A stretch of 64,000 nt of DNA, taken from assembly GCF_044755465.1 (NCBI RefSeq), contig NZ_JBIVRB010000010.1, positions 27,517 to 91,516 on the forward strand, written 5' to 3'. The DNA is from Streptomyces sp. NPDC092296 (GTDB lineage: Bacteria > Actinomycetota > Actinomycetes > Streptomycetales > Streptomycetaceae). The notes under the pieces were generated by a model. The model saw only the letters and a list, made by a program, of their open reading frames with translations. It was not told the DNA's origin and made no database searches. The stretch's first letter is position 1. Each line of letters begins with the position of its first letter. The position numbers were made by a program, and so were the translations under genes. Shown here in pieces: positions 1 to 17,918 of this stretch.

Positions 1-1856
1 CGTAGGCCGGCTCGTCGGCCGCGCCGCACGGTGCGGGCAGCTCGTCCTCGGGCAGTTCGGCGCCGTCCAGGAGGATCACCCGGACCCCGCCGCCGGCCTC
101 CCGGGCCAGGGCGCGGGCCTGCGCCAGGTGCTCCCGGTCGGCGAGGATCGAACCGGCGCCGCTGCGCGACAGCATCGGGACCAGCCGGGCCTCGGGGGCG
201 TCGACGTCGAACGGGAGGTAGACCCCGCCCGCCCCGAGCACACCGCACACGGCGGTGATGAAGTCCAGGCCGGGCCGGGCCAGCACGGCGACCAGGCCGG
301 GACGGCGGTGCGCCCCGTCGGCCGGTCCGCCCGTGCCCAGGGAGCGGGAGAGTGCTCCCGCCCGGCGCACCAGGGCGGCGTAGGTCAGCTCTCCCTCCGG
401 GGCCACGACGGCGATCGCGTCGGGGTAGGCGGCGGCGGTCAGTCGTACGCGCTCCACCAGGTGCCCGCCGCTCTCCTCGACCCGGGGGCCCACCGCGGTC
501 GGCCGCGCGTCGCGGGCCGGCTCGTCGACGCGGAGCCGCGCGAGCGGCGCCGCCGCGTCCGGCCCGGCGAACCGGGTGAGCAGTTCGGCCAGTCGGCGCG
601 CGTGGGCGTCCATCGCGGCCTGGTCGTGACGGCCGTCGTTGCCGCTGAGATGGATCGTCAGGCCGCCCCCGGGTGCCTGGACGAGGGTGAGCTCGAAGTC
701 GTCGATCAGGCCGGTCGACAGGTTGTGTACCGTCACCTCGCAGTCACCGAGGCGCAGTTCGGTCCGCTGCGGCAGGATGTTCACCAGCGGCCCGAACGGG
801 CGGTGGTCGTCACTGCGCAGCCCGATCTCACGGCGGATGCGGCTCACCCGCAGCCGCTGGTGCGTGATCAGCGCGTTGAACTCGCGCGAGACCTGGGAGA
901 GCAGCTCACGGCGGGTGCTCCGGTCGTCGATGCGCAGCCCCAGCGGCAGCGTGTTCGCGACCATCCCGGGCACCGCGCGCATCGTCGCGCCGACCCGGGC
1001 GGTGGCCGGAACGGTCAGCAGGACGTCGCGCCGCCCGGTGTACTTCCAGGTGTAGACGGCGACGGCGGCCATCACCACGGTCGGCCAGGTGACCGCGGCC
1101 TCCCGGGCCAGGGCGCGCAGCCGGTCGGCCACCTCGGGCGGCAGTTCGCAGCGGCTGCGCAGGAAGCCCGCGCCGGCCGTGCCGCCCGGCGCGGCCAGAC
1201 TCACCGGCTCCGGGGGCTGCGGGAAGCGGCGACGCCAGTAGGCCAGGTCCCGTGCCTGGTGGGCCGAGCCCTGGTAGGCGGCCTCCCTGTCGAGCAGTTG
1301 CCGCAGGGGAGGCAGGCGCTTCCCGCCGTCGCCCCCCGGGGCCCCGTCCGGCTCGGCCCCGTCCGGCTCGGCCTCATACAGCTCGGCCTCATACAGCTCG
1401 GTCAGCCTGTCCCAGAAGAGCACCTGGCTGTAGCCGTCGCAGAGCAGGTGGTGGATGCACATGTAGAAGAAGGAGCGCTGTTCGCCGCAGTGGATCAGCG
1501 CGAAGCGGACCAGCGGGCCGTGCTCCCGGTCGAAGGGCGTGGCGAGGTCGTCGCGCATCCACGCGTGCGCCGCCTCCTCGTCCGGCAGCTCGGCGGTGCG
1601 GAAGGGGAGTTCGGTGACCGGTTCCACCACCTGCCGCAGTGCCCCGTCCACCTCGACGATCCGGGCCCGCATGCACTCCGCCTCCTGGACCAGCCCGGCC
1701 ACCGCGCGGCGGAAGGCGTCGATGCGCAGCGGACCACGGATGTCCAGGTAGCCGGCGGTGTTGTAGTGGGCGCCGGCCCCGCCGAGCTTCTCGTCGAACC
1801 AGATGTCCGCCTGCCCGGCGGAGAGCGGCAGCACAAGGGAGGGGGCTTGCGTCATT
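1..1856 (-). CDS. Nonribosomal peptide synthetase, N-terminal part (condensation domain then start of adenylation domain); 3' end runs off window
   Basis: Reverse-strand translation from ATG at 1856-1854 (SD GGAGAG upstream) gives MTQAPSLVLPLSAGQADIWFDE... with C-domain HHxxxDG motif (CIHHLLCDGYS), then linker and A-domain-like sequence (YAALVRRAGALSR.., LVAVLARPGLDF..). No stop before the window edge. The plus-strand 601-aa ORF 128..1933 is its antisense shadow. Confidence 0.8.
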
Positions 1857-1954
1857 CTGCTCTCCTGCCGGGTGAGGATCGACTGCGACTCATCCTTGGT
1901 GCCGCCGCTGACGGCACACTGACGGGCAACTGACCTCCGCCACCGGCCAGTCGG

Positions 1955-1999
1955 CCGCGAGTCGGTCCGCCGCGAGTCAGTCCGCCGCGAGTCAGTCCG
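1955..1999. promoter_or_regulatory. Three tandem 15-bp direct repeats (GCCGCGAGTCRGTCC) in divergent NRPS/KASIII promoter region
   Basis: The sequence gccgcgagtcggtcc gccgcgagtcagtcc gccgcgagtcagtcc is followed by a partial fourth unit. It lies in the 220-bp intergenic gap between the divergent NRPS and the KASIII operon. Confidence 0.5.
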
Positions 2000-2076
2000 C
2001 CGTCAGGGCGCGGTCAGCCCGGCCGCCTAGCCTGCCGGTCAGGGCCGAACCATGCGGTCGGAGGCGGAGGTCGTCC

Positions 2077-3027
2077 ATGAAACAGCCCGGTGCCCCGGGA
2101 TCGCCAGCGCTGCTGGCGATCTCCAGCCATCTCCCGGAGACCATCCCGGTCTCCGGGCTCCAGGACCGGTTGGCGCTGAGCGATCAGCAGGTGCGCCGGT
2201 TCACCCGGCTCTACGGCCTGGACCGGATCTGCCAGTCCGCCGCGTCGGAGGTCGACCTGCTGGTCGCCGCCGCCGGCAAGCTGGACGAACTGGCCGGCCG
2301 CGAGGAGGACGTGCGCTACATCGTCCGGGCCAAGGGGTTGCGTACCACCGCGCCCTATCCGCGCAACCCCGTGCAGGAGTTCCGGCAGGTGATGGGCCTC
2401 TCCCGCGCCCGGACCTTCGCGGTGGAGGACCACGGCTGCGCGACGGGGCTGCTCGCCCTGGACGTGGCCGCGACGCTGCTGGCGCAGGACGGCGACCCGG
2501 ACGCCCTGGCGCTGGTGCTCCTCGGGGACAAGACGCTGACCCCGTTCTCCCAGTGGGTGGCCGACGTCTCCATCATGGGCGAGGGCGTCGCCGTGGCCCT
2601 GGTCGCGGCCGGTGGCACCCGGGACCGCATCCTCGGCTACGCGAGCCGGATCCACGGCCGCCCGGACGGTCAGATCGACATGACCCCGGACCTCGCCAAG
2701 CAGGCCCGGAAGATCTACCAGGACGCCTTGGCGGAGGTCGTGCAGGCCGCCTGCGAGCAGGCCGGGATCACCGTGGACGATCTGGACCTCGTGCTGCCGC
2801 ACAACGTCAACCGGGTCTCCTGGACGGTCGCCGGGGACCGGCTCGGCCTGCCGCAGGAGAAGCTCTTCCTGGACAACATCGCCGCCACGGGGCACTGCTT
2901 CTGCGCCGATCCCTTCATCAACCACCGGAGCGCACGAGAGCTGGGCCGGCTCCAGCCGGGCGACCGGTACCTGATGACCTCTGCCGGGCTGGGACAGGCG
3001 TTCGCGGCCATGGTCCTGCAGCACTGA
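2077..3027 (+). CDS. 3-oxoacyl-ACP synthase III (FabH/KASIII)-like protein, possibly an ACP-dependent acyltransferase
   Basis: The 316-aa protein has a nucleophile region EDHGCATGLLALDVA aligning to the FabH Cys motif. Its C-terminal half is FabH-like (PHNVNRVSW..LPQEKLF..ATGHCF), with GHCF where FabH has GNTS. A purine-rich SD (ggaggcggagg) lies upstream. Confidence 0.7.
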   Translation: MKQPGAPGSPALLAISSHLPETIPVSGLQDRLALSDQQVRRFTRLYGLDRICQSAASEVDLLVAAAGKLDELAGREEDVRYIVRAKGLRTTAPYPRNPVQEFRQVMGLSRARTFAVEDHGCATGLLALDVAATLLAQDGDPDALALVLLGDKTLTPFSQWVADVSIMGEGVAVALVAAGGTRDRILGYASRIHGRPDGQIDMTPDLAKQARKIYQDALAEVVQAACEQAGITVDDLDLVLPHNVNRVSWTVAGDRLGLPQEKLFLDNIAATGHCFCADPFINHRSARELGRLQPGDRYLMTSAGLGQAFAAMVLQH

Positions 3028-3041
3028 ACGTAGGAGGGACG

Positions 3042-4448
3042 ATGACCGACACCGTCAGCCGGGCCGCCCGCTTCCCCCGCTTCACCGACCGGCTCAGGAC
3101 CGCGCTGGGCGCCCCAGGGGCACCGCTGGTGCTGCTGGGCAACTTCGAGGTCGAGGAGGCCTGGTCAGCCGAGGAACTCACCCTGCCGCGCTTCTCGGCG
3201 GACTCCGGCGCCGCCGTGGTCAACCGGATGGACGAGTTCACGCTCCTGCTCGCGGGCGAGCAGGACCATGTGGTCCTCAAGTCGGCCCCCGACCCGGCCT
3301 ACCTCGCCTATCTGACCGCCCTGGGGCTTCAGCTGCCGCAGATCCATGCGGTGGCGGAGCACTGCCGCCGACCGGAGCGGACCGTCACCCTCGACGCCCT
3401 CGACGATCCGGAGCTGCTGGAGCGGCTCGGCTCGCTGGGCCGCTCCGGGGCGCGGCTGCTGCCGCACGGTACCTCTGCGGCGGAGAAACGGCTCGCCGAG
3501 CGCGCCGGCCTGCCGCTGGCGACGCCCGGCGCCGAGCTCTGCAAACGCGTCAACAGCAAGATCTACAGCCGCCGGCTGGCCGAGCAGCTGGGCCTGCGGC
3601 TCGCCCCCGGCTGGGCCTGCGAGACCCTCGACGAGCTGGCCCAGGCCTTCGAGCACGCCCGCAAGCTGCTGGGCGAGGGCCGCCGCACCGTGGTCAAGGA
3701 GGCGTTCGGGGTCTCCGGCAAGGGCATCACCATGCTTGACAGCGAACGCCGGATGGACCGGATCCTGACCATGGTCGCCGCCCAGGCACGCCGCTCGGGG
3801 CGCGACCGGATCGCCTTCGTGGTGGAGGAGTGGGTCGAGAACCTCGGCGACCTCAACTACCAGTTCACCGTGGGCAAGGACGGATCGGTCCACTTCGACT
3901 TCGTCAAGCAGGCGCTGACCGAGGGCGGTGTGCACAAGGGCCACCGCTTCCCGGCCCGGCTGACCGACCCGCAGTCGGCCGCGATCGTCGAGGTGGCGAC
4001 CCTGCTCGGCCCGCTGCTGGCCGCCGACGGCTACCACGGAGTGGTGGGCGTGGACGCCCTGCTCACCGCCGACGGGGGCGTCCTGCCCGTGGTCGAGATC
4101 AACGCCCGCAACAACATGTCCACCTATCAGGCCCGCCTCCAGGAGGAGCTGCTGGGGCCGGACCAGGTGGCCCTCGCCCGGCACTACCCGCTGCGCCTCG
4201 ACGCGGAGCTGGGCTTCGACCGGCTCCGCACCGTGCTGGACGGGCTGGTGCTGGACCGGCCGGGCGGCACCGGCCTGCTGGTCAACAACTTCGCGACCGT
4301 CAACGCCGGCCGGGACCTCCGGCCGGGCGAGTCCTTCGACGGCCGCCTGTACGCCATGGTGGTGGCCGGCTCGGCCGCCGAACTGACCGAGATCGACGAG
4401 GGCGTGAGCGCCCGACTCGCGGCGGAAGGAGTAGCCGGTGCCCGCTGA
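3042..4448 (+). CDS. ATP-grasp family carboxylate-amine ligase (BtrJ-like candidate)
   Basis: The 468-aa protein starts at an ATG preceded by GGAGGGAC. It has ATP-grasp signatures: a K..G..G.GI loop (KEAFGVSGKGITM) and an E.N.R motif (VVEINARNNMST). The 2052..4448 ORF in the track is an N-terminally over-extended frame. Confidence 0.7.
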   Translation: MTDTVSRAARFPRFTDRLRTALGAPGAPLVLLGNFEVEEAWSAEELTLPRFSADSGAAVVNRMDEFTLLLAGEQDHVVLKSAPDPAYLAYLTALGLQLPQIHAVAEHCRRPERTVTLDALDDPELLERLGSLGRSGARLLPHGTSAAEKRLAERAGLPLATPGAELCKRVNSKIYSRRLAEQLGLRLAPGWACETLDELAQAFEHARKLLGEGRRTVVKEAFGVSGKGITMLDSERRMDRILTMVAAQARRSGRDRIAFVVEEWVENLGDLNYQFTVGKDGSVHFDFVKQALTEGGVHKGHRFPARLTDPQSAAIVEVATLLGPLLAADGYHGVVGVDALLTADGGVLPVVEINARNNMSTYQARLQEELLGPDQVALARHYPLRLDAELGFDRLRTVLDGLVLDRPGGTGLLVNNFATVNAGRDLRPGESFDGRLYAMVVAGSAAELTEIDEGVSARLAAEGVAGAR

Positions 4449-5739
4449 ATTCGAGGTCCAGGGCCTCGTGATCACCGATATCGCCGAGGAGTTCGGCACC
4501 CCGCTGTACCTCTACGACGGCGAGGCCCTGCGGGACCGGGTCAGCTCGCTCCGCGCGCTGCTCCATCCCCGGCTGGAGATCTTCTACTCGCTCAAGGCCA
4601 ATCCCAACGTCTCGGTCTGCGCGCTGCTCCACACGTTCGGCGCCAACGCCGAGATCTCCTCGCTGGTCGAGCTGCGCACCGCGCGGGCGGCCGGGGTGGC
4701 GCCGGAGGACATCCTCTTCCTGGGCCCCGGCAAGAGCGTCGAGGAGTTGGAAGCCTGCCTGGACGAGGGCGTCTTCGCGATCGTCTGCGAGTCCTTCGGC
4801 GAACTGGCCCTCATCGACGAGCTGGCCGCCCGGCGGGGGATCGTCGCCCGGGTCGCGCTGCGGGTCAACCCCGAGTTCGCGGTGAAGGGGTCGGGACTGA
4901 CCATGGGCGGCAAGCCACGGCAGTTCGGCATCGACGAGGCCCAGTTGCTGGCCGCGTCCGACCTGGCCGACCGCCACCGGCACGTCCGGCTGGTGGGCAT
5001 CCAGACCTATATGGGAACCAGAATCCTCGCCGCCGGTGCGGTGGTGGAGAACACCGAGCGGATTCTCGCGCTGGCGGAGCGCGTCTCGACCCGGCTGGGC
5101 TTCCCGCTGGAGCTGGTGGACGTCGGCGGCGGCCTGGGCGTGGCGTACTTCGAGGGGGAGGAGGACCTGGACCCGGCCGAACTGGCCACCGGGATCAACC
5201 CGTTGATCGCGGCGTTCGCGGACCGGCACCCCGGGGTCCGGCTGGTGATGGAGCTCGGCCGCTACCTGACGGCGGAGGCGGGCACCTATGTCACCCGGGT
5301 GCGCTATGTGAAGGAGTCCATGGGCCAGCGGTTCGCGGTGGCCGACGGCGGCACCAACCACCACATGGCGGCCGTGGGCATCGGCTCCTTCATCAAGCGC
5401 AACTTCCCGCTGGCCGTGCTCAACCGGCTGGACGAGCCGCCGACCGAGCTGTGGAACATCACCGGTCCGCTGTGCACCCCCAGCGACACCCTGGGCAAGC
5501 GGGCGCTGCTCCCGCCGCTCCGGGCCGGCGACCTGATCGGCGTGGGGCGCTCGGGCGCCTACGGGCCCAGCGCCTCGCCGGTCCTCTTCCTCAGCCACGG
5601 CCACCCGGCGGAGGTCCTGGTCTGGCGGGGCCGCGCCCACCTGGTCCGCCGACGGGACCGGGCGGAGGACCTGCTGGACCGGCAGCAGCTCGCCGACCTC
5701 GGTGAGCCGGCCGACCTCACCGCGAGCCCGGCCGGCTGA
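4438..5739 (+). CDS. PLP-dependent decarboxylase, fold type III (Orn/DAP/Arg decarboxylase family; BtrK-like candidate)
   Basis: The 433-aa protein carries the FYSLKANPN PLP-Lys motif and an overall diaminopimelate-decarboxylase-like architecture. The GTG start overlaps the upstream stop by 11 nt. Confidence 0.85.
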   Translation: MPAEFEVQGLVITDIAEEFGTPLYLYDGEALRDRVSSLRALLHPRLEIFYSLKANPNVSVCALLHTFGANAEISSLVELRTARAAGVAPEDILFLGPGKSVEELEACLDEGVFAIVCESFGELALIDELAARRGIVARVALRVNPEFAVKGSGLTMGGKPRQFGIDEAQLLAASDLADRHRHVRLVGIQTYMGTRILAAGAVVENTERILALAERVSTRLGFPLELVDVGGGLGVAYFEGEEDLDPAELATGINPLIAAFADRHPGVRLVMELGRYLTAEAGTYVTRVRYVKESMGQRFAVADGGTNHHMAAVGIGSFIKRNFPLAVLNRLDEPPTELWNITGPLCTPSDTLGKRALLPPLRAGDLIGVGRSGAYGPSASPVLFLSHGHPAEVLVWRGRAHLVRRRDRAEDLLDRQQLADLGEPADLTASPAG

Positions 5740-5821
5740 CCGGCGCCGTCCCCACCGGCGAGGCACCGAGCCGGCGCCGCCGCACACACCCGCACACCCA
5801 CCGAGAACCGGAGACACCGCC

Positions 5822-6097
5822 ATGACCGAGACCAGCACCCACACCCCCGACCGCGCCGAGGTGATCGGCGTCATCGGCCGCTCCCTCGTCGTCGTCCTCG
5901 GCGACGGACTGCCCGCCCTCACCGAGGAGTCCCGCCTCTTCGACCAGGTCGGCCTGGACTCCAACGGCGTCTTCGAGCTGCTGATGGAGCTGGAGGAAGC
6001 CCTCGGCATCGAGCTGGACACCGACAACCTGGAGATGCGGCACTTCGAGAGCCTCGGCTCCCTGGCGGACTTCCTGCTCGCGGAGATGAGCAGCTGA
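5822..6097 (+). CDS. Stand-alone acyl/peptidyl carrier protein
   Basis: The 91-aa protein MTETSTHTPDRAEVIGV... has a phosphopantetheine-site motif (GLDSNGVFELLMELEE). The track ORF 5702..6097 is over-extended; ATG at 5822. Confidence 0.75.
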   Translation: MTETSTHTPDRAEVIGVIGRSLVVVLGDGLPALTEESRLFDQVGLDSNGVFELLMELEEALGIELDTDNLEMRHFESLGSLADFLLAEMSS

Positions 6098-6099
6098 CG

Positions 6100-7604: not shown

Positions 7605-7644
7605 CCTGATGTCGATTATATGTCTTCCATAGACCGGGGGGTGA

Positions 7645-7685
7645 TCCTGCTCACAGCAGGACCACCCCCCGGCCACCTTCGAGGC
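7645..7685 (+). terminator. Strong hairpin (about 19-bp stem) downstream of the plus-strand operon
   Basis: The sequence ccggggggtgatcctgct-cac-agcaggaccaccccccgg lies 40 bp after the stop at 7604. It is preceded by an atypically AT-rich stretch (tcgattatatgtcttccatag). Confidence 0.5.
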
Positions 7686-7857
7686 GGACGACCAGTATCT
7701 GATCGCACGTCAGCCGGTCGGGGCGGCGGCCGAGCCCACGTGGACGGCGGAGGGCGGCCCACGGGTCAGCCGGCACCGGCCCGGCGTGGACTGCACCGTG
7801 CACGTGTCGATGCCCTGAGCCCGCCGAGTCCGTCCGCTCCGAAGGGGAAGCCTGTCC

Positions 7858-11336: not shown

Positions 11337-11866
11337 CAGTTCTCCTCTCCTTGCCCGACCGACGCGCCCGAGGCACCGTACGCATCGTCCGGCCCGTCGC
11401 CGCGCAGCGTCTCCGCCGGGCGCAGCGCTATGGTCATCTCGTCGATCTCCAGCAGCAGCCGGCCCTCGCAGCGGGTCTCGCCGGTCAGGATCGCGGTGCC
11501 ACCCAGGTCGCGGAGGAGCCGGACCTCGTGCTCCACCAGCTGCCCCGGCCAGGCCGCGCCGCTCACCCGGACCCCCTTCAGGCCGGCCAGCAGTGCGACC
11601 GTGCCGGTGAGCACATCCGGGTTGGGCCGCTCCCAGCAGACCAGCAGCACCGCCGCCTGAGCCCAGGACTCCAGCAGCCAGCCCGTCGGGTAGGCATGGC
11701 GGCCGGGGGCCGCGTCCTCCTCGATGCCCGCGTAGCAGGGCTCCGCCGCGCTGACCGCCTTGCGTGCGCGCAGCCGCGTGCCCGGTTCCACCTCGACCAC
11801 CTGGTCCACCAGCAGGACCGGGTGGCGGTGCGGCACCACCCGCCGGATCTCGGCGACGCCGATCAC
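11336..11866 (-). CDS. FabZ-like hotdog-fold 3-hydroxyacyl-ACP dehydratase (subunit 2)
   Basis: The 176-aa protein starts at GTG with SD GGGGGAGGG. It contains [19 protein letters not shown] (FabZ-like LPHRxPFLLVDRV), with [17 protein letters not shown] in place of the QGHFPG..PGVL region. Confidence 0.7.
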
Positions 11867-12363
11867 GGGCCCTCCCCCGAAGAAACAACGCCCGAAGAAA
11901 CAACGCCCGAAGAAACAACGCCCGGAGAGACGACGCCCGGACAGGCGCTGGGCGGAGAGAGGCTGGGCGGATAGACGATGCGCAGCTTCGCCACCGGTCC
12001 GTGCGGGCCGTCGAGTCGGACGGCGGCCCGGGTGCCGCCCTCGGTCTCCTCGACCACGGCCTCCAGCCGGAGCCGCTCCTGCGGACGCACCGGCGCCAGG
12101 AATCTGGCCCGCTCCAGCAGCAGCGGCTGCTCCGGCTCCCGCCCGAGCGACCGGCACAGCAGGGTGTGCACCCGCTGGACCATGAAGAGTCCTGGGACCA
12201 GGGCGAACCCGGGGTAGTGACCGGCCTGGACGGCATCGTCCGGCCCCACCGCTCCGGCGCCGCGCAGGACCGTCCGGCCGTCGGTCTCCGCCGGCTCCAG
12301 CCGGTCCAGCGGCGGCACCGGTACGGCGGCCCGCTGCCCCGCGTCAGCCGGCCAGGACCGCAC
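11863..12363 (-). CDS. FabZ/FabA-like hotdog dehydratase (subunit 1) with C-terminal (GVVSS)n repeat tail
   Basis: The 166-aa protein contains [18 protein letters not shown], the FabZ QGHFPG.P..PGVL catalytic motif. Its stop overlaps the downstream GTG (GTGA). The C-terminal [25 protein letters not shown] tail is encoded by 15-bp tandem repeats. The start is uncertain (GTG at 12363 or downstream). Confidence 0.6.
11878..11945 (-). repeat. 15-bp tandem repeat (gaagaaacaacgccc x3 plus a variant) within the 3' end of the hotdog dehydratase gene
   Basis: Direct reading shows gaagaaacaacgccc gaagaaacaacgccc gaagaaacaacgccc ggagagacgacgccc. The repeat is in frame and encodes GVVSS repeats on the minus strand. 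Confidence 0.85.
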
Positions 12364-13456
12364 AGCCGACCATCCCGTCGCGGTCGATGCCGGTCACCAG
12401 CGCCACCTCACCGGGGGCCAGGACCCCCTGGTCGGCGGCGGCGAGCACGGCGGCCACCTGGACGGCCGTGGAGGCGGCCGAGGTGTCGCCGAGCAGGTCG
12501 CGGCAGTCCAGTACCCGGGACGGCGCGGCTCCCAGCGCGGCGGCCACGGCCGCCGTCTCCGTCTCCGCGTCCAGCGGGGCGAGCAGCCGGACGCGGTCCG
12601 CCGCGACACCGGCCCGGTCGAGGGCCGAGCGTACGCACTCCGTCAGCGCCTGCGCCGCCCCGCCCGGCCGGTGGTGGGCGCGGAACCGCACGCCGAGCAG
12701 GCGCGCCGAGGGCCTGCGGCCGGTCGTCGGCGTCGTCTCCTCGGCCTCCAGGAGGGCGACCGCCGCGGCTTCGCCGAGCACCCGGGGTTCCGCCGCCGCG
12801 GCCTCCTCCAGCCGGTGGCGCCGCACCGAGTACTCCTCGGCCGCTCCGCAGATCACCTGCTCGCAGTGGCCGCCCCGGTAGAGCCGGGAGGCGTACCCGA
12901 GGACGTGCAGACCGGTCAGGCTGCCCCCGGCCACGGTGCTGTTCGGTCCCTTGATGCCGTGCCAGATCGCGCTCTGGCCGGCGGCGCGGTTCATCACCGT
13001 GTTGGGAAAGCGGGCCGGGTCCACGTGGTAGGGCTTCTCCCCGGTCAGCGCGGACTCGGTGAAGTCCATGATGCTCTGGACGCTGCCGTGGCCGGTCCCC
13101 AGCACCAGCCCGACCCGCTCCGGCCGAACCAGCAGCTGCGGACCGCAGTCGGTGAGCAGCCGGTCCACCGCCGTCACCGCCAGCGCGGTGACCCGGTCCA
13201 TGGTGCGGGTGCCCTTGCGGCCGAGCGCTTCGGCGGCGCTGAAGCCCGGCACCACCCCACCGCGCCCCGGGACGCCGGGGAGCGGCCCCGGGCCCAGCTC
13301 CGCCAGGGCGCTGCGGCCCGCCAGCACGCCGGCGCCGAAGGCCGCGCCGCCCACGCCGTACGGGGTGACGGCGGACCAGGCGGTGAGCACCAGCCGGGCC
13401 GTCGCACGCCCCTCGGCGCCGCCGACCGGCGGCGCCGAGGGGGCCGCCGCCGTCAC
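12344..13456 (-). CDS. Ketosynthase-like protein lacking the active-site Cys (KS-beta / chain-length-factor-like)
   Basis: The 370-aa protein has a KS N-terminus ([15 protein letters not shown]). The GP....TACSSSL position reads [14 protein letters not shown], so no Cys is present. It starts at GTG in a GTGA overlap with the upstream thioesterase stop. Confidence 0.8.
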
Positions 13457-14414
13457 CGGTTGCCCCGGCCGGTGATCCGCCCGGCCTTCCCGTGCAGGGC
13501 GTCGGTCAGGCGGTCGTCGAAGTCGACCAGGCTCCAGTCACGGCGGTTGCCGATGACGGCCCAGCCGTGGGTGATCTTCCCGGTCGCCGTCTGCACCAGC
13601 CTGCCGTCGCGTACGACGTAGCAGTCCATCCGCGCGGTGTAGGTGTACCGCTTGAAGACGTTCTCCACGGTGAAGACGGTGTGGACGGTCTCCTCCATGC
13701 GCGCCTCGTCGAGGATCTCGATCCGCGAGTGCGGGACGACCGGTATCCAGTCCTGCTCGTCGAGCAGCGTCTTGATGGAGACGCCCCGGTCCTGGAGGAA
13801 GAGGTCCACGACCTCCTCCATCAGGCGCAGATAGCCCGACATCTGCACCCGCTCGGTGAAGTGGCAGTAGAAGTACGGCATCCGCCAGGACCAGCCGAAG
13901 GCGTTCTGGCCCTCGACCAGCTGCGCGAGCGGGTCGGCACCGGTCACCTCGGCCGACTCCGCCTGCTCGTCGGTCCCCAGCCGGTCGACCACATAGGGCG
14001 CCAGCTGCGCCGGCGGCTGCTCGGCCGCGTGGCCCCGGGGGTCGAGCCGCAGCTGCACGGTGGCCTTGGAGACCACGGCCCTGATCCGCTCGCCATCGCG
14101 GTCCACGGTCAGCTCCACGGCGAACCGCAGCTCGTCGCCCGGCACCCGCCGGACGGTGGCGGAGGCGACGTCATCGATGTGGAAGGCGGTCAGGATCTTG
14201 GTGTCGATCCGGGTGATGTCGGTGCCGATGCCGAACCGCTCGTAGAGCGCGCCGGCCGGATGGCCCTGCTGGCGCAGGTGGTCGTAGATCGCCTCTTCGA
14301 CCATGTAGTTGACGTGCTTGAACCCGATCCAGGTGCAGATGTTCGAGCCTTCGTAGCGGGGGCGGAGTTCCGTCGTGGTGATCGGTTCCGCTGCGGTGAC
14401 GGTGCTCTGGCTCA

Positions 14415-14415
<1 letters not shown>
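13453..14415 (-). CDS. Tandem hotdog-fold thioesterase-like protein (4HBT-like double hotdog)
   Basis: The 320-aa protein has two hotdog-like halves (ICTWIGFKHVNYMVEEAIYDHL and MPYFYCHFTERVQMSGYLRLMEEV). Its ATG is in an ATGA overlap with the hydrolase stop. Confidence 0.6.
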
Positions 14416-15283
<868 letters not shown>

Positions 15284-15287
<4 letters not shown>

Positions 15288-16543
15288 CGTTCCGGCTCGT
15301 AGCGGCCGAGGATCAGCACCGCGTTGTTGCCCGCGAAGGCCAGGGCGTTGTTCTGCACGATGCGGACATCGGCCTGGCGCGCCTGGTTGGGCACCGGGTC
15401 GATACCGCACTCCTCGTCCGTCGTCCGGTGGTTGATGGTCGGCGGGATGAACCCCTCCGTGATGGCCAGCGCGCACGCGGCCGAGGCCAGCGCACTGGCC
15501 GCGCCCATGGTGTGCCCGAGCATTCCCTTCACCGAGACGGTCGGCGGCGCGTCGCTGAAGACCTGCCGGATCGCCCCGGCCTCAGTGACGTCATTGGCCT
15601 TGGTCCCGGTGCCGTGCGCGGAGATGAAGTCGATCTGCTCCGGCTTCACCCCGGCGTTGCGGTGGGCGAGCTCCATGCAGCGGGCGAGGCTGTCCCGGTC
15701 CGGTGCGACCGGATGGCTGGCGTCGCAGTTCAGGCCGTAGCCCAGCACCTCCGCGTAGATGCGGGCGCCGCGCCGCCGGGCGGACTCCAGGCTCTCCAGC
15801 AGCAGGATGCCGCCGCCTTCACCGGTGAGGATGCCCTTCCGGTCGCTGTCGAACGGGCGGCAGACATCCGGTGCGATGGTCCCCAGCCGGTAGAAGCCGG
15901 TGAAGGTCTTCCGGCAGACCGCGTCGGCGCCGCCGCACAGCGCCATGTCGACCTCACCCGCCCGGATGGCGTCGTAGCCCGACCCGATGGCGTAGTTGCC
16001 GGCCGCGCAGGCGGTCGGGATGGTGACGGCCTCCGCGTCGACCAGTTCGAGTTCGCGCACGATGCCGCTGGAGAGTGCGCCGGCCGAGGCCCGGCGCGCC
16101 ACCCGCCCGTCGACGGGCTCCCCGGCGAGCTGCCGCGCCACCAGCTCGTCCAGGTCCCTGGACTCCCCGTCGGTGGTGCCGACGGAGACCAGCACCGCGC
16201 GGCTGCGCAGCTCGTCCAGGCCCAGCCCCGCGTCGTCGACGGCCATGCGGGCCGCCGCGACCGAGAACTGGCTCGCCCGGCCGAGCTCCTCCGGGTCCAG
16301 CACCTCGATCCACCGCGACGGATCGAAGTCGTCGATCTCGCAGCCGTTGGCATGGGCGAATCCGCTGGTGTCGAACGCGGTGATCGGCTTGACCCGGCTG
16401 CGGCCGGAGCGCAGACCCTCCAGGAACTCCGTCACCCCGATGCCGATGCTGGTGACCACCCCGATTCCGGTGACGACCACCCGGTGCGGCCCGTGCCCGC
16501 CGCTCACCGTCTGATCCCCGGTGTGATCCACGGTGTGATCCAC
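15284..16543 (-). CDS. Beta-ketoacyl synthase (KS-alpha, FabF/type II PKS KS)
   Basis: The 419-aa protein has the active-site Cys (TACAAGNYAIG) and the His motifs (SAHGTGT, GHTMGAAS). The GTG start follows SD GAGGAAGG. The N-terminus DHTVDHTG is encoded by a 12-bp tandem repeat. Confidence 0.9.
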
Positions 16544-16579
16544 GGTGTGTCCCCTTCCTCCGCGTCCGATCGGCGTCGG

Positions 16580-16846
16580 CTAATTGGCGGACGCGTCCTC
16601 GACGACGGCCACGACACCCTCCAGATTGACCATGCGGGTGAGCTCGCTCTGGTCGATCTCGACGTTGAAGGTGCGCTCCAAGGAGGAGAGGATCTCGATG
16701 GCCCCGAGGGAGTCGGCGCCGTGGTCCTTGAACAGGCTGGTCCAGGTCACCTCGGCGGGCTCGATCTCCAGGATCTCGCAGACGATCTCCTTGATCTGCG
16801 CGCGCTGCTCGTCGTTCAGCTTCGCGGCGCGATCCGTGGCGGACAT
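16580..16846 (-). CDS. Acyl carrier protein
   Basis: The 88-aa protein contains ..KDHGADSLGAIEILSSLE.., with the DSL phosphopantetheinylation site. It is the first gene of the minus-strand operon. Confidence 0.85.
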   Translation of the reverse strand: MSATDRAAKLNDEQRAQIKEIVCEILEIEPAEVTWTSLFKDHGADSLGAIEILSSLERTFNVEIDQSELTRMVNLEGVVAVVEDASAN

Positions 16847-17175
16847 GTGGCCTCCAGAGAAGAGCAGGTCTGATTACGCCACGATTCTTCGCCGCCGCCC
16901 TGACACAGAGCTGACGCACGACTGACAGTGAGAAACCCGTGGTGGCGCCGCGACCGCTCCGGTCCGTCCGATGCAGACCACCCGGGGCCTCTTGACCTGG
17001 CACCGGACGCGGGATTTGGTTGAGCGGGACGCCGCAAGCCGGACCCGGACCGGCGGCTCCCCTGCGGCCCCCCGACCTGGCGAACCGTCGCGAAGAGAGG
17101 CCCCGTTGGAAGCTTCCGCCTCCCGGCGTTCCGTCCCCGCCGAGCCGCAGCCCGACCGGCCGGACGCCGACGCGC

Positions 17176-17918
17176 TCACCGCCGTGACCCGACGGCTGAC
17201 CGGAGCGCCGCCGCCGGTGACGGCCACCCCTCGGGCGGGCGTGGACCTCTGCCTCCTCGACCTGCGGACGGTCGACGGGACCCGCCTCGACACCTGCGTC
17301 CTGGACGAGGAGGAGCACACCCGCCGACGGAGCCTGCTGCGCAGCGGTGACCGCCGCCGCTTCACGGTGGCTCACATCGCCCTGCGCCGCCTGCTCGCCC
17401 GCCGGATCGGCACGGACGCCCGCTCTCTGGCCTTCACCCGCGAGCCGTGCCCGCTCTGCGCCGGCCCGCACGGCCGTCCTGCGGTGCTGCGGCCGTCGGC
17501 CGAGGTGCACTTCTCCCTCTCCCACGGGGGTGACTTCGTCCTGGTCGGCCTGGCCGACCGGCCGATCGGGGTGGATGTGCAGCCGTTCCCCTCGGGCCTT
17601 CGCCTCAAGGGGATGCTGCGCGCGCTCCACCCGGCCGAGCAGACCGAATTCGCCGCCCTCCCACCGGACGCGGACCCGGCCGCCGCCTTCGCCCGCCTCT
17701 GGTCCCGCAAGGAGGCCTACCTCAAGGCCCTGGGCACCGGACTCGCCCGTGGCCTGTCCACCGACTACCTCGGCACCACCGGCCTTGCCCCCACCCCCCA
17801 GGGCTGGCACATCGCCGACCTCGCACCCGTCTCCTCCCACGCCGCCGCCTACGCCCTCCCCGGCCCCGCACCGGCCGCCCTGCGCATCCGCAGCCTCCCG
17901 GCCGCACTCGTCTACTGA
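17176..17918 (+). CDS. Sfp-type 4'-phosphopantetheinyl transferase
   Basis: The protein carries FSLSHGGDFVLVGLA..GVDVQ and WSRKEAYLKALGTG motifs. The track ORF starts at 16971, and in-frame GTGs near 17176, 17215 and 17239 are more plausible starts, so the start is uncertain. Confidence 0.7.

What the first reader, a model, noticed from the sequence alone, without database searches (positions are those of the whole stretch)
1..17918. Edge of a hybrid NRPS / type II KS-CLF biosynthetic cluster with a dedicated aminoacyl-ACP cassette, SARP and PPTase
Six features sit within 18 kb. First, an NRPS begins with a condensation domain, which in initiation modules is typical of N-acylating starter C domains of lipopeptides. 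Second, a divergent operon encodes KASIII, ATP-grasp, PLP decarboxylase, ACP and two small thiolase/ACAD-like proteins. Third, a pathway-type SARP follows. Fourth, a 10-gene translationally coupled operon encodes ACP, KS-alpha, Cys-less KS-beta, KR, two hotdog dehydratases, ACAD, a DsbA/HCCA-isomerase-like protein, a double-hotdog thioesterase and an alpha/beta hydrolase. Fifth, an Sfp-type PPTase is adjacent. Sixth, a 15-bp x3 direct-repeat array lies in the divergent promoter. The combination predicts an N-acylated peptide whose acyl chain is built by a reducing type II KS/CLF system from an unusual, probably amino-bearing starter. I cannot match this gene order to a described cluster from memory.
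Basis: partly seen in the sequence, partly recalled or inferred. Interest (0 to 1): 0.85.

Follow-up and report, generated by a model that had tools for sequence, protein, structure and literature searches.

The report
SARP-controlled lipopeptide cluster with aminoacyl-ACP cassette
This is the real right-hand end of a Streptomyces antibiotic-type gene cluster that joins a peptide assembly line to a polyene-making fatty-acid-like synthase, and it also carries a widespread but apparently unstudied seven-gene cassette that probably supplies an amino-bearing building block for the lipid tail.

Summary
The window comes from Streptomyces sp. NPDC092296.

- **Polyketide part.** It is a highly reducing type II synthase. 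The ketosynthase (KS) and chain-length factor (CLF) are closest to Iga11/Iga12 of ishigamide. The layout KS-…-CLF-DH-DH-KR-isomerase matches cinnamoyl and polyene lipopeptide clusters.
- **NRPS.** Its first condensation (C) domain resembles starter C domains.
- **The new element.** The operon KASIII-like / ATP-grasp / BtrK-like PLP decarboxylase / ACP / Cys-less pseudo-KASIII / ACAD-C-domain protein, plus the ACAD at 8711-9865, form one conserved cassette. Relatives of its ATP-grasp were confirmed in 186 stretches of a one-genome-per-species collection. Of the 80 loci kept, at least 26 carry the cassette's ACAD with no type II PKS gene nearby. I found no description of it in the open literature.
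- **Likely role.** It probably makes GABA- or β-alanyl-ACP and extends it as an amino-bearing primer. This step is inferred, not shown.
- **Regulation.** Three (GTCAG-N6)×3 SARP boxes sit 8 nt upstream of −10-like hexamers at the three operon promoters. These, not the 15-bp array, are the conserved operator.

Verdict: a new variant of a known kind.

The parts
2..1855 (-). 5' part of an NRPS gene: starter-type condensation domain, then the beginning of an adenylation domain; runs off the left edge of the window
   Evidence: Pfam finds Condensation at residues 2-423 and then AMP-binding. The best solved-structure hits are 7C1H/7C1K at 185 bits and CDA-C1 4JN3 at 177 bits; ObiF1 and EntF score 145-147, other C domains 91 or less. 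ATG at 1855 with a GGAGAG ribosome-binding site.
1908..1934 (-). SARP box 1: (GTCAG-N6)x3 pointing toward the NRPS gene, with a -10-like AAGGAT 8 nt downstream (1897-1892)
   Evidence: chance expectation 0.15 and 0.23. Conserved in L004, L005 and L009. Sequence read.
1948..2002 (.). 15-bp tandem array (CAGTCCGCCGCGAGT x3.7); lineage-specific; its units carry extra GTCAG cores and its last unit supplies heptamer 1 of box 2
   Evidence: TRF score 96 and the repeat finder. Absent from the orthologous promoters aligned.
1991..2033 (+). SARP box 2: GTCAGTC-N4-GTCAGGG-N4-GTCAGCC, an 8-nt spacer, then -10-like TAGCCT (2028-2033); upstream of the cassette operon
   Evidence: The three heptamer cores are invariant in the 7-locus alignment. 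An exact triple heptamer occurs in 47 of the 86 loci then held, usually just upstream of the KASIII-like gene. It matches the PapR2 consensus GTCAGSS (PMC7040171).
2077..3027 (+). KASIII-like condensing enzyme (316 aa) with Cys121 and His242; a His occupies the position of the FabH Asn
3042..4448 (+). PreATP-grasp/ATP-grasp ligase (468 aa), the putative BtrJ-like enzyme that loads an amino acid onto the ACP
   Evidence: Pfam. 100% identical to a Streptomyces sp. NPDC092296 protein. AlphaFold model pLDDT 88. Nearest folds are 8YND, 3WVQ/3WVR and BesA, with TM about 0.7.
4438..5739 (+). Fold-type III PLP decarboxylase (433 aa), BtrK-like aminoacyl-ACP decarboxylase
   Evidence: BtrK (7RU7/2J66) at E 2.5e-91 and 310 bits, against 186 bits or less for DAP decarboxylases; NCBIfam.
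5822..6097 (+). ACP1 (91 aa; LDSNG serine), the carrier of the cassette
   Evidence: Pfam PP-binding; sequence.
6100..6966 (+). Pseudo-KASIII (288 aa): thiolase-fold protein with no conserved catalytic Cys; probable non-catalytic partner of the KASIII-like enzyme
   Evidence: No Pfam or NCBIfam hit. Ortholog profile versus FabH 4RYB gives E 2.9e-7. hhalign against the KASIII-like family gives E 1e-3, and the Cys column is variable. 415 representatives at 50% identity reach E 1e-3 or better.
6963..7604 (+). p213: unknown N-terminal half plus an ACAD C-terminal helical domain; no FAD or β-barrel domains and no catalytic Glu
   Evidence: Profile versus solved structures: glutaryl-CoA and short-chain acyl-CoA dehydrogenases, E 5e-4 to 2e-3, over residues 94-210. 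A natural fusion with pseudo-KASIII exists in P0295.
7858..8622 (+). Small SARP activator (254 aa)
   Evidence: Pfam Trans_reg_C + BTAD.
8711..9865 (-). Acyl-CoA-dehydrogenase-family flavoenzyme (384 aa). In most relatives it is the 7th gene of the cassette operon, directly after p213
   Evidence: Pfam and NCBIfam. Gene order in the eight cassette-bearing loci printed. In the 80 loci, the ACAD never occurs without p213, and 26 loci have the ACAD but no type II PKS gene.
9880..10587 (-). Polyene/cinnamoyl cis-trans isomerase (HCCA isomerase / GST-kappa family)
   Evidence: Pfam DSBA and solved structure 3FZ5. It carries both actinobacterial isomerase motifs, PRYYFSLRSPYSW and FGVPFF, as defined in PMC12532209.
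10587..11336 (-). Ketoreductase (SDR, about 249 aa)
   Evidence: Pfam adh_short_C2 and KR. Start taken from the Logan gene call and a TGATG junction.
11336..11866 (-). Second putative dehydratase subunit (176 aa)
   Evidence: No Pfam hit here. Its ortholog in L005 sits next to an ApeI-like gene. Position equals the second DH in published polyene clusters.
11863..12363 (-). FabA/MaoC-like hotdog dehydratase (166 aa or less)
   Evidence: Pfam FabA at E 4e-4, below the family cut-off.
12344..13456 (-). Chain-length factor (KSβ, 370 aa) without an active-site Cys
   Evidence: Best solved-structure hit is 6KXD_B (which I take to be Iga12) at 216 bits. Where KSα has TACAAGN, a rough pairwise alignment shows no Cys in this protein.
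13453..14415 (-). 320-aa hotdog (4HBT_2) protein, possibly a double hotdog; role unknown
   Evidence: Pfam hits only residues 190-291. Found with the α/β-hydrolase in window-type relatives.
14415..15287 (-). α/β-hydrolase (290 aa); role unknown (release, editing or amine deprotection)
   Evidence: Pfam Abhydrolase_6. GTG 15287 overlaps the KSα stop codon.
15284..16543 (-). [quoted passage not shown]
   Evidence: 6KXD_A (which I take to be Iga11) at E 5e-161 and 539 bits; 64% identity by tblastn. Start chosen by a GGAGGAAGG ribosome-binding site.
16580..16846 (-). ACP2 (88 aa), the elongation carrier
   Evidence: Pfam PP-binding; GADSLG motif.
16884..16926 (-). SARP box 3: (GTCAG-N6)x3 pointing toward the ACP2-KS operon, an 8-nt spacer, then -10-like AAGAAT (16889-16884)
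17241..17918 (+). Sfp-type phosphopantetheinyl transferase (start uncertain, 17106-17241)
   Evidence: Pfam ACPS + AASDHPPT_N; start candidates.

Best explanation
[quoted passage not shown] NPDC092296.

**Shown at family level**
- The NRPS opens with a starter-type C domain.
- A single KSα-CLF pair, with KR, two dehydratase subunits, a polyene cis-trans isomerase and ACP2, forms a polyene-type synthase. Its layout is the KS1…CLF1-DH-DH-KR-ISO core of ishigamide, colibrimycin and cinnamoyl-type clusters.
- A Sfp-type PPTase is adjacent.
- The SARP has three canonical operators, one at each operon promoter.
- A seven-gene cassette is an independent, conserved module: KASIII-like, ATP-grasp, BtrK-like decarboxylase, ACP1, pseudo-KASIII, p213 and ACAD.

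**Inferred mechanism**
1. The ATP-grasp enzyme thioesterifies the side-chain carboxylate of Glu (or Asp) to ACP1, as BtrJ does.
2. The PLP enzyme removes the α-carboxylate, giving 4-aminobutyryl-ACP1 (or β-alanyl-ACP1).
3. The Cys-His-His KASIII-like enzyme pairs with its Cys-less partner, by analogy with PqsBC. It takes this ω-aminoacyl group as primer and condenses it with malonyl-ACP.
4. The ACAD, recruited through p213, desaturates the saturated stretch or oxidises a cyclised intermediate.
5. KS-CLF, KR, DH and the isomerase extend the chain to a short polyene with one Z bond.
6. The starter C domain transfers the acyl chain to the first amino acid.
For: **Source and gene families**
- Gene families. 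Source organism.
- The decarboxylase scores 310 bits against BtrK versus 186 or less for DAP decarboxylases.
- KSα and CLF are closest to Iga11/Iga12: 539 and 216 bits, 64% identity.
- The isomerase carries both published family motifs.
- CLF-DH-DH-KR-ISO matches the gla/gac/sky order.
- The C domain is closest to two N-terminal first C domains, recalled as starter type.

**The cassette as a unit**
- KASIII-like keeps Cys, His and a second His, as decarboxylating KAS I/II enzymes do.
- Pseudo-KASIII lacks a conserved Cys.
- Across 80 related loci, 64 have KASIII + decarboxylase + ACP1 + pseudo-KASIII together.
- p213 and the ACAD co-occur in 50 loci, and the ACAD never occurs alone.
- 26 loci have the ACAD without any type II PKS gene.
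- A natural pseudo-KASIII-p213 fusion exists.

**Priming logic**
- In Amycolatopsis loci the ATP-grasp gene sits inside the operon ACP-KS-CLF-KR-ATP-grasp. This argues that it feeds the PKS.
- Two ACPs plus a KASIII recall the priming module of the R1128 type II PKS (from my own knowledge).

**Regulation**
- The SARP boxes.
Against: - No biochemical datum exists for any gene of the cassette. The amino acid (Glu or Asp), the acceptor of the ATP-grasp reaction, and the substrates of KASIII and the ACAD are all inferred.
- No BtrJ sequence was available for a direct comparison. The nearest solved folds are peptide and amide ligases (8YND; 3WVQ/3WVR, which I recall as PGM1; BesA). An amide-forming role is therefore not excluded.
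- The cassette also occurs with FAAL + ACP + a free-standing C domain, as in the S. cavourensis locus L002. It also occurs with an NRPS but no PKS gene within 10 kb, as in the S. rimosus locus L006. Priming a KS-CLF cannot be its only role.
- A free ω-amine on a growing β-ketoacyl chain would tend to cyclise. No protecting or deprotecting enzyme is identified, although the α/β-hydrolase is a candidate.
- Ishigamide, the product of the closest characterised KS-CLF, is a polyenoyl-β-alanine amide. That fits the rival 'spacer' model.
- The rest of the NRPS lies outside the window.
Confidence: 0.55

Rival explanations
1. **Spacer model.** The cassette makes β-alanyl-ACP1 or GABA-ACP1. The amine is then N-acylated by the polyenoyl-ACP2 chain, with the KASIII/pseudo-KASIII pair acting as an acyltransferase. 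The resulting polyenoyl-β-Ala/GABA-ACP1 is handed to the starter C domain. Ishigamide-like polyenoyl-β-alanine would be the hydrolysed intermediate.
For: - Ishigamide is 3-(tetraenamido)propanoic acid (PMC11022428).
- Its KS-CLF is the closest solved relative of the pair here.
- antiSMASH tables report an S. rimosus NRPS region as 'ishigamide 61%'.
- They also type the ishigamide cluster of strain KN37 as 'thioamide-NRP, NRPS, ladderane'. This hints that the reference ishigamide cluster may share cassette-like genes.
- Some KASIII-like proteins are acyltransferases. CerJ and ChlB3 appear among the solved-structure hits.
Against: - The KASIII-like enzyme keeps a Cys-His-His set typical of decarboxylative condensation.
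- FAAL-type loci already encode a free-standing C domain for amide formation alongside the full cassette. This makes an N-acylating KASIII redundant there.
- The iga-like locus of S. chartreusis (98% Iga11) shows no cassette within 10 kb of the KS.
- The model gives no role to the ACAD and p213.
Confidence: 0.2
2. **Heterocycle or building-block model.** The cassette is a self-contained pathway. It extends GABA-ACP by one C2 unit. The 6-amino-3-oxohexanoyl intermediate cyclises to a pyrroline, and the ACAD oxidises the ring. The product is an N-heterocyclic acyl cap or an unusual residue, formed independently of the KS-CLF chain.
For: - The cassette occurs without any type II PKS gene in at least 26 of 80 loci.
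- It also occurs without the ACAD and p213 in S. rimosus-type loci.
- The pairing of a catalytic and a non-catalytic KASIII recalls PqsBC, which builds an N-heterocycle. PqsC is among the solved-structure hits.
- The ACAD hits prolyl-carrier-protein dehydrogenase models (RedW 73 bits, PigA 61 bits).
- Pseudo-KASIII is fused to redox partners in other lineages.
Against: - The ACAD scores are not specific; acryloyl-CoA reductase scores higher, at 95 bits.
- No natural product with the predicted cap is known to me.
- In Amycolatopsis the ATP-grasp gene is embedded in the PKS operon without a KASIII-like gene or a decarboxylase.
- The model is purely chemical reasoning.
Confidence: 0.15
3. **Ordinary cinnamoyl-containing nonribosomal peptide (CCNP) cluster.** The acyl chain is a 2-alkenyl- or 2-methyl-cinnamoyl group, and the cassette is incidental.
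For: - KS, KR and the isomerase, the three published CCNP mining probes, are all present next to an NRPS (PMC6510318).
- The isomerase motifs are met.
- The gene order is syntenic with published CCNP clusters.
Against: - CCNP clusters are said to contain KS1-CLF1 and KS2-CLF2 plus a cyclase complex universally. Only one KS-CLF pair is present here.
- Isomerases of this family also serve non-cinnamoyl trienes such as colibrimycin.
- The regulator is a SARP, not the LuxR type conserved in CCNP clusters.
- No CCNP paper that I could read mentions an ATP-grasp enzyme or a decarboxylase.
Confidence: 0.07
4. **Decayed or silent cluster.** The locus no longer makes a product.
For: - A related plasmid cluster in S. 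decoyicus has lost most of its type II PKS; a 70-aa KS remnant is left.
- Several genes here carry in-frame short tandem repeats.
Against: - All 19 genes are intact, with strong coding signal.
- Junctions are translationally coupled.
- Catalytic residues are retained.
- The SARP operators are intact.
Confidence: 0.03

Closest known systems
Ishigamide (iga) highly reducing type II PKS: Iga10 ACP, Iga11 KS, Iga12 CLF, Iga13 KR, Iga16 DH; structures 6KXD-6KXF
   Same: KSα and CLF are the best solved-structure matches (539 and 216 bits; 64% identity to Iga11). The system is built from discrete ACP, KS, CLF, KR and hotdog DH proteins. It sits next to NRPS genes. The iga cluster was activated by a SARP, as this one is predicted to be.
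   Different: In an iga-like locus (98% Iga11), KS and CLF are adjacent and are followed by KR, an amine-oxidase-like flavoprotein, an OCD-like gene and a MaoC DH. Within 10 kb of the KS that locus has no isomerase, no hotdog/α/β-hydrolase insert and no cassette. Here, two genes separate KS from CLF.
Cinnamoyl-containing nonribosomal peptide (CCNP) and related polyene clusters (sky, cal, kcn, gac, gla, ysf, cbm)
   Same: The order KS1 … CLF1-DH-DH-KR-ISO is shared. The isomerase carries the PRXYFSLRSPYSW and FGVPXF motifs. The NRPS has an acyl-accepting first C domain. A PPTase is present in some of these clusters.
   Different: There is only one KS-CLF pair and no KS2-CLF2. No recognised cyclase complex is present. 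The regulator is a SARP rather than a LuxR type. The ATP-grasp/decarboxylase/KASIII cassette is not mentioned for any of these clusters in the papers I could read.
Butirosin side-chain pathway BtrI/BtrJ/BtrK (and closthioamide CtaD/E/F)
   Same: An ATP-grasp ligase, a dedicated carrier protein and a fold-type III PLP decarboxylase are encoded together. The decarboxylase scores 310 bits against BtrK. The shared logic is that an acidic amino acid is tethered by its side-chain carboxylate and then α-decarboxylated to give an ω-aminoacyl thioester.
   Different: No BtrH, BtrG or BtrO/V equivalents are present. Instead there is a KASIII-like pair, an ACAD and p213. The context is a lipopeptide cluster, not an aminoglycoside or polythioamide cluster. 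A distant Bacillus analogue does carry a BtrH-N-domain protein.
PqsBC (Pseudomonas quinolone synthase heterodimer)
   Same: It pairs a catalytic KASIII-like subunit that has Cys and His with a KASIII-like partner lacking the catalytic residues. PqsC appears among the solved-structure hits of both proteins. The resemblance to PqsBC is from my own knowledge.
   Different: Sequence similarity is weak (E 1e-5 to 0.2). Heterodimer formation here is inferred only from co-occurrence. The substrates are unrelated.
Priming modules of type II PKSs with non-acetate starters (R1128 ZhuH/ZhuG, daunorubicin DpsC)
   Same: A KASIII-type enzyme and a second, dedicated ACP are encoded beside a KS-CLF. DpsC is among the solved-structure hits. 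The comparison is from my own knowledge.
   Different: Those systems prime aromatic PKSs from acyl-CoA starters. Here the putative primer is an ACP-bound ω-amino acid made in situ, and the PKS is highly reducing.
PapR2/RedD-type small SARPs and their GTCAGSS operators
   Same: It is a small SARP with heptamer direct repeats at 11-bp periodicity, ending 8 nt before the −10 element. The core GTCAG equals the published PapR2 consensus.
   Different: Binding has not been tested here. The extra 15-bp array with further GTCAG cores is peculiar to this strain.

Membership tests
Highly reducing (polyene-type) type II PKS | KSα with a Cys-His-His active site, most similar to Iga11-type KSs | tested here: met
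   TACAAGN, SAHGTGT and GHTMGA motifs. 6KXD_A scores 539 bits against 249 for the best FabF.
Highly reducing (polyene-type) type II PKS | CLF partner lacking the active-site Cys | tested here: met
   6KXD_B scores 216 bits. A rough global pairwise alignment shows no Cys at the aligned position.
Highly reducing (polyene-type) type II PKS | Discrete ACP, KR and hotdog DH; no ER | tested here: met
   Pfam. The DH assignments are weak: FabA at E 4e-4 for one subunit, and no hit for the other.
Highly reducing (polyene-type) type II PKS | A polyene product | not testable with these tools
   Needs chemistry.
Cinnamoyl-containing nonribosomal peptide (CCNP) cluster (definition in PMC12532209) | Isomerase of the HCCA/GST-kappa family with the PRXYFSLRSPYSW and FGVPXF motifs | tested here: met
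   PRYYFSLRSPYSW at residues 8-20 and FGVPFF near residue 177 (one search compared).
Cinnamoyl-containing nonribosomal peptide (CCNP) cluster (definition in PMC12532209) | Two KS-CLF pairs (KS1-CLF1 and KS2-CLF2) | tested here: not met
   Only one KS and one CLF lie in 1-18 kb, and none lies further right. A second pair left of the window cannot be excluded. The window-type relatives L034, L036 and L050 show none between ACP2 and the NRPS.
Cinnamoyl-containing nonribosomal peptide (CCNP) cluster (definition in PMC12532209) | Cyclase complex (Kcn17-19 / Gac11-13 type) | tested here: inconclusive
   No reference sequences were available. The α/β-hydrolase and the hotdog protein occupy the corresponding position between KS1 and CLF1.
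BtrIJK-type aminoacyl-ACP formation | PLP decarboxylase specifically related to BtrK | tested here: met
   310 bits, E 2.5e-91, over residues 11-416.
BtrIJK-type aminoacyl-ACP formation | ATP-grasp ligase that thioesterifies Glu to the carrier protein | tested here: inconclusive
   The ATP-grasp fold is confirmed, and the gene is adjacent to and overlaps the decarboxylase gene. No BtrJ sequence or structure was available, and activity is untested.
BtrIJK-type aminoacyl-ACP formation | Dedicated carrier protein | tested here: met
   ACP1 with a PP-binding domain and Ser motif.
BtrIJK-type aminoacyl-ACP formation | Downstream BtrH transferase, BtrG cyclotransferase and BtrO/V hydroxylase | tested here: not met
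   None found among the genes of 1-23 kb.
SARP regulon | Regulator with an OmpR-type winged helix plus a BTAD domain | tested here: met
SARP regulon | Direct heptamer repeats at 11-bp spacing, ending 8 bp upstream of the −10 element of target promoters | tested here: met
   Three triple-heptamer boxes, and only these three in 64 kb. Each has an 8-nt spacer before a −10-like hexamer. The box is conserved. The definition comes from PMC7040171.
Starter (lipo-initiation) condensation domain | N-terminal C domain that clusters with acyl-accepting starter C domains | tested here: met
   Position is at residue 2 of the protein. The best solved relatives are 7C1H/K/P and CDA-C1 (177-185 bits), against 145-147 for ObiF1 and EntF and 91 or less for the other C domains listed. 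The identity of 7C1H as the RzmA starter C domain is from memory. No phylogeny was done.
Sfp-type PPTase | Two-domain PPTase of about 230 aa (ACPS + N-terminal domain) | tested here: met
PqsBC-like KASIII heterodimer | A catalytic KASIII-like subunit plus a paralogous subunit lacking the nucleophile | tested here: met
PqsBC-like KASIII heterodimer | A physical heterodimer | not testable with these tools
   Only co-occurrence is available: 64 of 80 loci.

The most novel reading that the evidence does not exclude
The seven-gene cassette may be an undescribed lipo-initiation module that recurs widely in actinomycetes. It comprises a KASIII-like enzyme, an ATP-grasp ligase, a BtrK-like decarboxylase, an ACP, a pseudo-KASIII, an ACAD-C-domain adaptor and an ACAD. 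On this reading it converts Glu or Asp on a carrier protein into an ω-amino primer, or an N-heterocyclic primer after cyclisation and oxidation.

The work would be done by a PqsBC-like KASIII heterodimer physically coupled to a flavin dehydrogenase. The module would plug interchangeably into type II PKS, FAAL-loaded or plain NRPS lipopeptide pathways. The resulting peptides would carry nitrogen-bearing acyl chains not yet seen in this class.
Probability: 0.4. Interest if true: 0.75.

Novelty: new variant of a known kind. Interest (0 to 1): 0.6.

Why it matters
**A conserved unknown module.** If the inferred role holds, the cassette would add a way of priming or capping lipopeptide acyl chains with a carrier-bound, decarboxylated amino acid. 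It recurs across at least a dozen actinomycete genera. Among the 80 loci examined it appears with three different lipid-supply systems. Two of its proteins match no Pfam or NCBIfam family above threshold. It is therefore a conserved unknown, not a one-off.

**A direct experimental route.** The conserved GTCAG operators and the small SARP offer a simple test: overexpress the SARP and look for nitrogen-containing acyl chains.

**A mining handle.** The pseudo-KASIII (415 representatives at 50% identity) is a specific marker for the cassette.

**Limit on the claim.** The type II PKS, NRPS, SARP and PPTase parts are themselves ordinary. The locus is a new variant, not a new kind.

Tried and rejected
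- **Extending the contig.** An exact-protein look-up found only a 12-kb Logan contig reaching 294 nt further left. One look-up found nothing. The rest of the NRPS stays unseen.
- **Searching with the NRPS fragment.** The protein search returned only five partial hits.
- **Literature.** Ten full-text searches found no paper describing the cassette. They covered combinations of ATP-grasp, PLP decarboxylase, KAS III, BtrJ/K/I, aminoacyl-ACP, ishigamide and cinnamoyl. Subscription-only papers were not readable. These include the original ishigamide cluster paper, the cinnamoyl reconstitution paper and the colibrimycin paper.
- **Does the reference ishigamide cluster contain the cassette?** I rebuilt Iga11 from the solved-structure alignment and found a 98% ortholog in S. 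chartreusis. The 10-kb flanks show no cassette. The question stays open, because indirect antiSMASH hints point the other way.
- **p213 as a truncated paralogue of the cluster ACAD.** Rejected by hhalign.
- **The S. decoyicus plasmid cluster as a 'minimal' system.** Rejected, because it carries a KS remnant and so is decayed.
- **The 15-bp array as the operator.** Rejected in favour of the 11-bp-spaced heptamers.
- **The pachycephalamide/demiguisin clusters of Amycolatopsis as the known product.** Considered and found unrelated.

Full report
**Source and gene calls**

The window is about 73% G+C actinomycete DNA. Its ATP-grasp protein is 100% identical to one from Streptomyces sp. NPDC092296. 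A codon-usage gene caller, Pfam and junction inspection give 19 genes in 1-18 kb.

*Minus strand, at the left edge*
- 2-1855: 5' part of an NRPS gene (C domain, then the start of an A domain).

*Plus strand*
- 2077-3027: KASIII-like enzyme
- 3042-4448: PreATP-grasp/ATP-grasp ligase
- 4438-5739: fold-type III PLP decarboxylase
- 5822-6097: ACP1
- 6100-6966: a 288-aa protein with no family hit
- 6963-7604: a 213-aa protein
- 7858-8622: small SARP

*Minus-strand operon, read from 16846 down to 8711*
- ACP2
- KSα
- α/β-hydrolase
- 320-aa hotdog protein
- CLF
- two dehydratase subunits
- KR
- HCCA-isomerase-like protein
- ACAD

*Plus strand*
- about 17241-17918: Sfp-type PPTase.

*Further right*
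- A LAETG-anchored repeat protein, an MFS transporter, a GntR/TetR fusion regulator and a GlnA-like gene follow.
- From 23.6 kb there is a long aerobic cobalamin operon.
- The biosynthetic cluster therefore ends at about 18 kb, or 23 kb at most.

**Checking the observation**

All six listed features are present. Two details are wrong or unverified.
- The 'double hotdog' label rests on one Pfam hit in the C-terminal half.

Translational coupling is real. Six junctions are GTGA or TGATG overlaps. CLF/DH overlaps by 20 nt if DH starts at 12363. The other two are short gaps with a ribosome-binding site.

The 15-bp array is real: 1948-2002, 3.7 copies, TRF score 96.

**The polyketide part**

- KSα and CLF have their best solved relatives in 6KXD chains A and B, which I take to be Iga11/Iga12 of the ishigamide synthase. 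The scores are 539 and 216 bits, far above the best FabF at 249 bits. Identity to Iga11 is 64%.
- KSα keeps Cys-His-His. The CLF has no Cys at the aligned site.
- The 'DsbA-like' gene carries PRYYFSLRSPYSW and FGVPFF. A 2025 study gives these two motifs as diagnostic of actinobacterial cinnamoyl/polyene isomerases (PMC12532209).
- The order CLF-DH-DH-KR-isomerase, with KS1 separated from CLF1 by inserted genes, matches published cinnamoyl and polyene clusters.
- That study states that cinnamoyl-peptide clusters universally contain two KS-CLF pairs and a cyclase complex. Only one pair is present here.
- Isomerases of this family also serve linear trienes such as colibrimycin.
- I therefore file the PKS as a highly reducing polyene-type system. 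I do not file it as a cinnamoyl-peptide cluster.

**The NRPS start**

The first C domain begins at residue 2. Its scores against solved structures are as follows.
- 185 bits against 7C1H/7C1K, which I recall as the rhizomide starter C domain.
- 177 bits against CDA-C1.
- 145-147 bits against ObiF1 and EntF.
- 91 bits or less against the other C domains listed.

This supports an acyl-accepting starter role. No phylogeny was done.

**The cassette: family assignments**

- **Decarboxylase.** It scores 310 bits (E 2.5e-91) against BtrK, the L-glutamyl-[BtrI ACP] decarboxylase of butirosin biosynthesis. Diaminopimelate decarboxylases score 186 or less. A review describes the logic shared by butirosin, closthioamide and fluvirucin. 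An acidic amino acid is tethered to a carrier protein by its side-chain carboxylate. It is then α-decarboxylated to GABA- or β-alanyl-thioester (PMC11350588).
- **ATP-grasp.** The model is confident (pLDDT 88). It is closest to ATP-grasp amino-acid and peptide ligases, with TM about 0.7. These are 8YND, 3WVQ/3WVR (which I recall as PGM1) and BesA. No BtrJ reference was available.
- **288-aa protein.** It is a thiolase-fold relative: its profile matches FabH at E 2.9e-7 and the KASIII-like family by hhalign at E 1e-3. The catalytic Cys column is not conserved. It is a pseudo-KASIII.
- **213-aa protein (p213).** Its C-terminal half matches the ACAD C-terminal helical domain (E 5e-4 to 2e-3). It lacks the flavin-binding domains and the catalytic Glu. 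It is not a paralogue of the cluster ACAD.

**The cassette is a unit, and the ACAD belongs to it**

A scan of one genome per species confirmed relatives of the ATP-grasp in 186 stretches. The 80 loci kept span Streptomyces, Kitasatospora, Actinosynnema, Saccharothrix, Umezawaea, Amycolatopsis, Nocardia, Pseudonocardia, Thermobifida, Protofrankia, Micromonospora, Streptosporangium and Phytohabitans.

A tblastn presence matrix over those 80 loci (each ±10 kb) gives these counts.

| Feature | Loci (of 80) |
|---|---|
| KASIII-like + decarboxylase + ACP1 + pseudo-KASIII together | 64 |
| p213 | 52 |
| ACAD | 50 |
| ACAD without p213 | 0 |
| ACAD with no KS, CLF, KR or isomerase nearby | 26 |
| SbnA/SbnB-like genes (probable 2,3-diaminopropionate supply) | 47 |
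| NRPS first-C-domain homologue | 41 |

- In all eight cassette-bearing loci whose gene order was printed, the seven genes run in a single co-directional block: KASIII-like, ATP-grasp, decarboxylase, ACP1, pseudo-KASIII, p213, ACAD.
- In this window the ACAD has moved to the end of the convergent PKS operon.
- A natural fusion protein joins pseudo-KASIII to p213 (hhalign probability 99.95%).
- Another lineage fuses pseudo-KASIII to an FMN-dependent dehydrogenase.
- These points indicate a physical complex of the condensing pair with a redox partner.
- The pseudo-KASIII family is small: 415 representatives at 50% identity among 1.84 billion.

**Contexts of the cassette**

- **Window type.** NRPS + cassette + type II PKS with isomerase, hotdog protein and α/β-hydrolase (for example L034, L036, L050).
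- **FAAL type.** S. cavourensis has a fatty-acyl-AMP ligase, two long ACADs, an ACP, the cassette, MatE, a free-standing C domain and a PPTase.
- **S. rimosus type.** NRPS + SbnA/B-like genes + the cassette without p213 or ACAD. A 2026 table lists an S. rimosus NRPS region as 'ishigamide 61%' with no product assigned.
- **Amycolatopsis type.** SARP-ACP-KS-CLF-KR-ATP-grasp-SbnB-SbnA, with no KASIII-like gene, decarboxylase or ACP1.
- **Decayed plasmid copy** in S. decoyicus.
- **Distant analogue** on Bacillus wiedmannii and mycoides megaplasmids, which includes a BtrH-N-domain protein.

**Mechanism**

*Shown:* family memberships, conserved residues, synteny, co-occurrence and the fusions.

*Inferred, as my best reading:*
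1. ATP-grasp loads Glu or Asp onto ACP1.
2. Decarboxylation gives GABA- or β-alanyl-ACP1.
3. The Cys-His-His KASIII with its inert partner condenses this primer with malonyl-ACP.
4. ACAD/p213 dehydrogenates.
5. KS-CLF, KR, DH and the isomerase build a short polyene.
6. The starter C domain attaches it to the peptide.

Three observations favour a condensing, priming role: the retained His-His pair, the two-ACP-plus-KASIII architecture, and the Amycolatopsis operon with the ATP-grasp gene inside the PKS operon.

The main rival is that the amino acid is a spacer N-acylated by the polyene. Ishigamide is a polyenoyl-β-alanine. A second rival is that the cassette makes a cyclised N-heterocyclic cap by PqsBC-like chemistry. 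Neither rival is excluded. The occurrence of the cassette without any PKS shows that priming a KS-CLF cannot be its only use.

**Regulation**

- The pattern GTCAG-N6-GTCAG occurs six times in 64 kb, against 0.15 expected.
- These six form exactly three triple-heptamer boxes: 1908-1934 (−), 1991-2017 (+) and 16900-16926 (−).
- Each box points toward an operon start: the NRPS ATG at 1855, the KASIII-like ATG at 2077 and the ACP2 ATG at 16846.
- Each is followed after exactly 8 nt by a −10-like hexamer: AAGGAT, TAGCCT and AAGAAT.
- This is the published SARP architecture, and the core equals the PapR2 consensus GTCAGSS (PMC7040171).
- An exact triple heptamer occurs in 47 of the 86 loci then held, in most of them just upstream of the KASIII-like gene.
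- Its three cores are invariant in a seven-locus alignment spanning three genera. The 15-bp array falls in an alignment gap.
- The array is therefore a strain-specific expansion that adds GTCAG cores at 15-bp spacing. The 11-bp-spaced heptamers are the conserved operator.

**Comparison and novelty**

The PKS, starter C domain, SARP and PPTase are members of known kinds. The cassette combines known parts (BtrIJK-type logic, a PqsBC-like pairing, an ACAD) in an arrangement for which I found no description. That holds across ten full-text searches and the readable cinnamoyl-peptide papers. Whether the reference ishigamide cluster contains the cassette is also unresolved.

I rate the locus a new variant of a known kind, with interest 0.6. 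The chance that the cassette is a genuinely undescribed lipo-initiation module is about 0.4.

Noticed in passing
window 18056-19501 (+): A 481-aa secreted protein with no Pfam hit. It has a C-terminal LAETG sortase signal, a transmembrane helix and a basic tail. It also has a long (S/T-A-G)n region encoded by 36/48/84-bp tandem repeats at 18938-19285. It is probably a cell-wall-anchored surface protein unrelated to the cluster.
   Followed up: partly
window 23594-45438: A long aerobic cobalamin biosynthesis region. It includes CbiX, a CbiG fusion, precorrin methylases, CobB/CobQ amidases, CobO, a 1233-aa CobN, an AAA+/VWA chelatase subunit and CobD. It marks primary metabolism to the right of the cluster.
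   Followed up: partly
window 21308-22276 (+): A 322-aa regulator that combines a GntR winged helix with TetR_N and TetR_C domains in one protein, next to a divergent MFS transporter (19554-21131).
   Followed up: no
window 11876-11939, 14464-14497, 16512-16549: In-frame short tandem repeats inside biosynthetic genes. A 15-bp x4.3 repeat lies at the C-terminus of the first dehydratase, a 9-bp x3.8 repeat (DSD repeats) at the C-terminus of the α/β-hydrolase, and a 12-bp x3.2 repeat at the N-terminus of KSα. Together with the 15-bp promoter array, they suggest a locally high rate of slippage.
   Followed up: no
P0295 and P0346 (homologues of window 6100-6966): Natural fusions of the pseudo-KASIII. 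One is fused to the p213 domain (hhalign 99.95%). The other is fused to an FMN-dependent α-hydroxy-acid-dehydrogenase-like domain.
   Followed up: partly
L064 and L045 (Amycolatopsis), 5600-13500: A variant operon, SARP-ACP-KS-CLF-KR-ATP-grasp-SbnB-like-SbnA-like. It lacks the KASIII-like gene, the decarboxylase and the second ACP. Here the ATP-grasp ligase sits directly inside the type II PKS operon.
   Followed up: partly
L088 (S. decoyicus plasmid NZ_CP108348), 27000-30430: A related cluster on a 235-kb linear plasmid. It retains only a 70-aa KS C-terminal remnant between the α/β-hydrolase and the ACP. The type II PKS appears to have been deleted.
   Followed up: partly
L089 (Bacillus wiedmannii plasmid NZ_CP036072), 1-25000: A distant analogue of the cassette in Bacillus cereus-group megaplasmids. 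It has two KASIII-like genes, an ATP-grasp (31% identity), a lysA-like decarboxylase, split ACAD genes, a carrier protein, a BtrH-N-domain protein and UvrA/UvrB paralogues. The last might be self-resistance genes.
   Followed up: no
L087 (S. chartreusis, iga-like locus): The locus encoding a 98% Iga11 ortholog has two large NRPS genes, MbtH and ABC transporters directly upstream of the ACP-KS-CLF-KR genes. An SbnB-like gene lies downstream. This suggests ishigamide may be a shunt product of a larger lipopeptide pathway.
   Followed up: no
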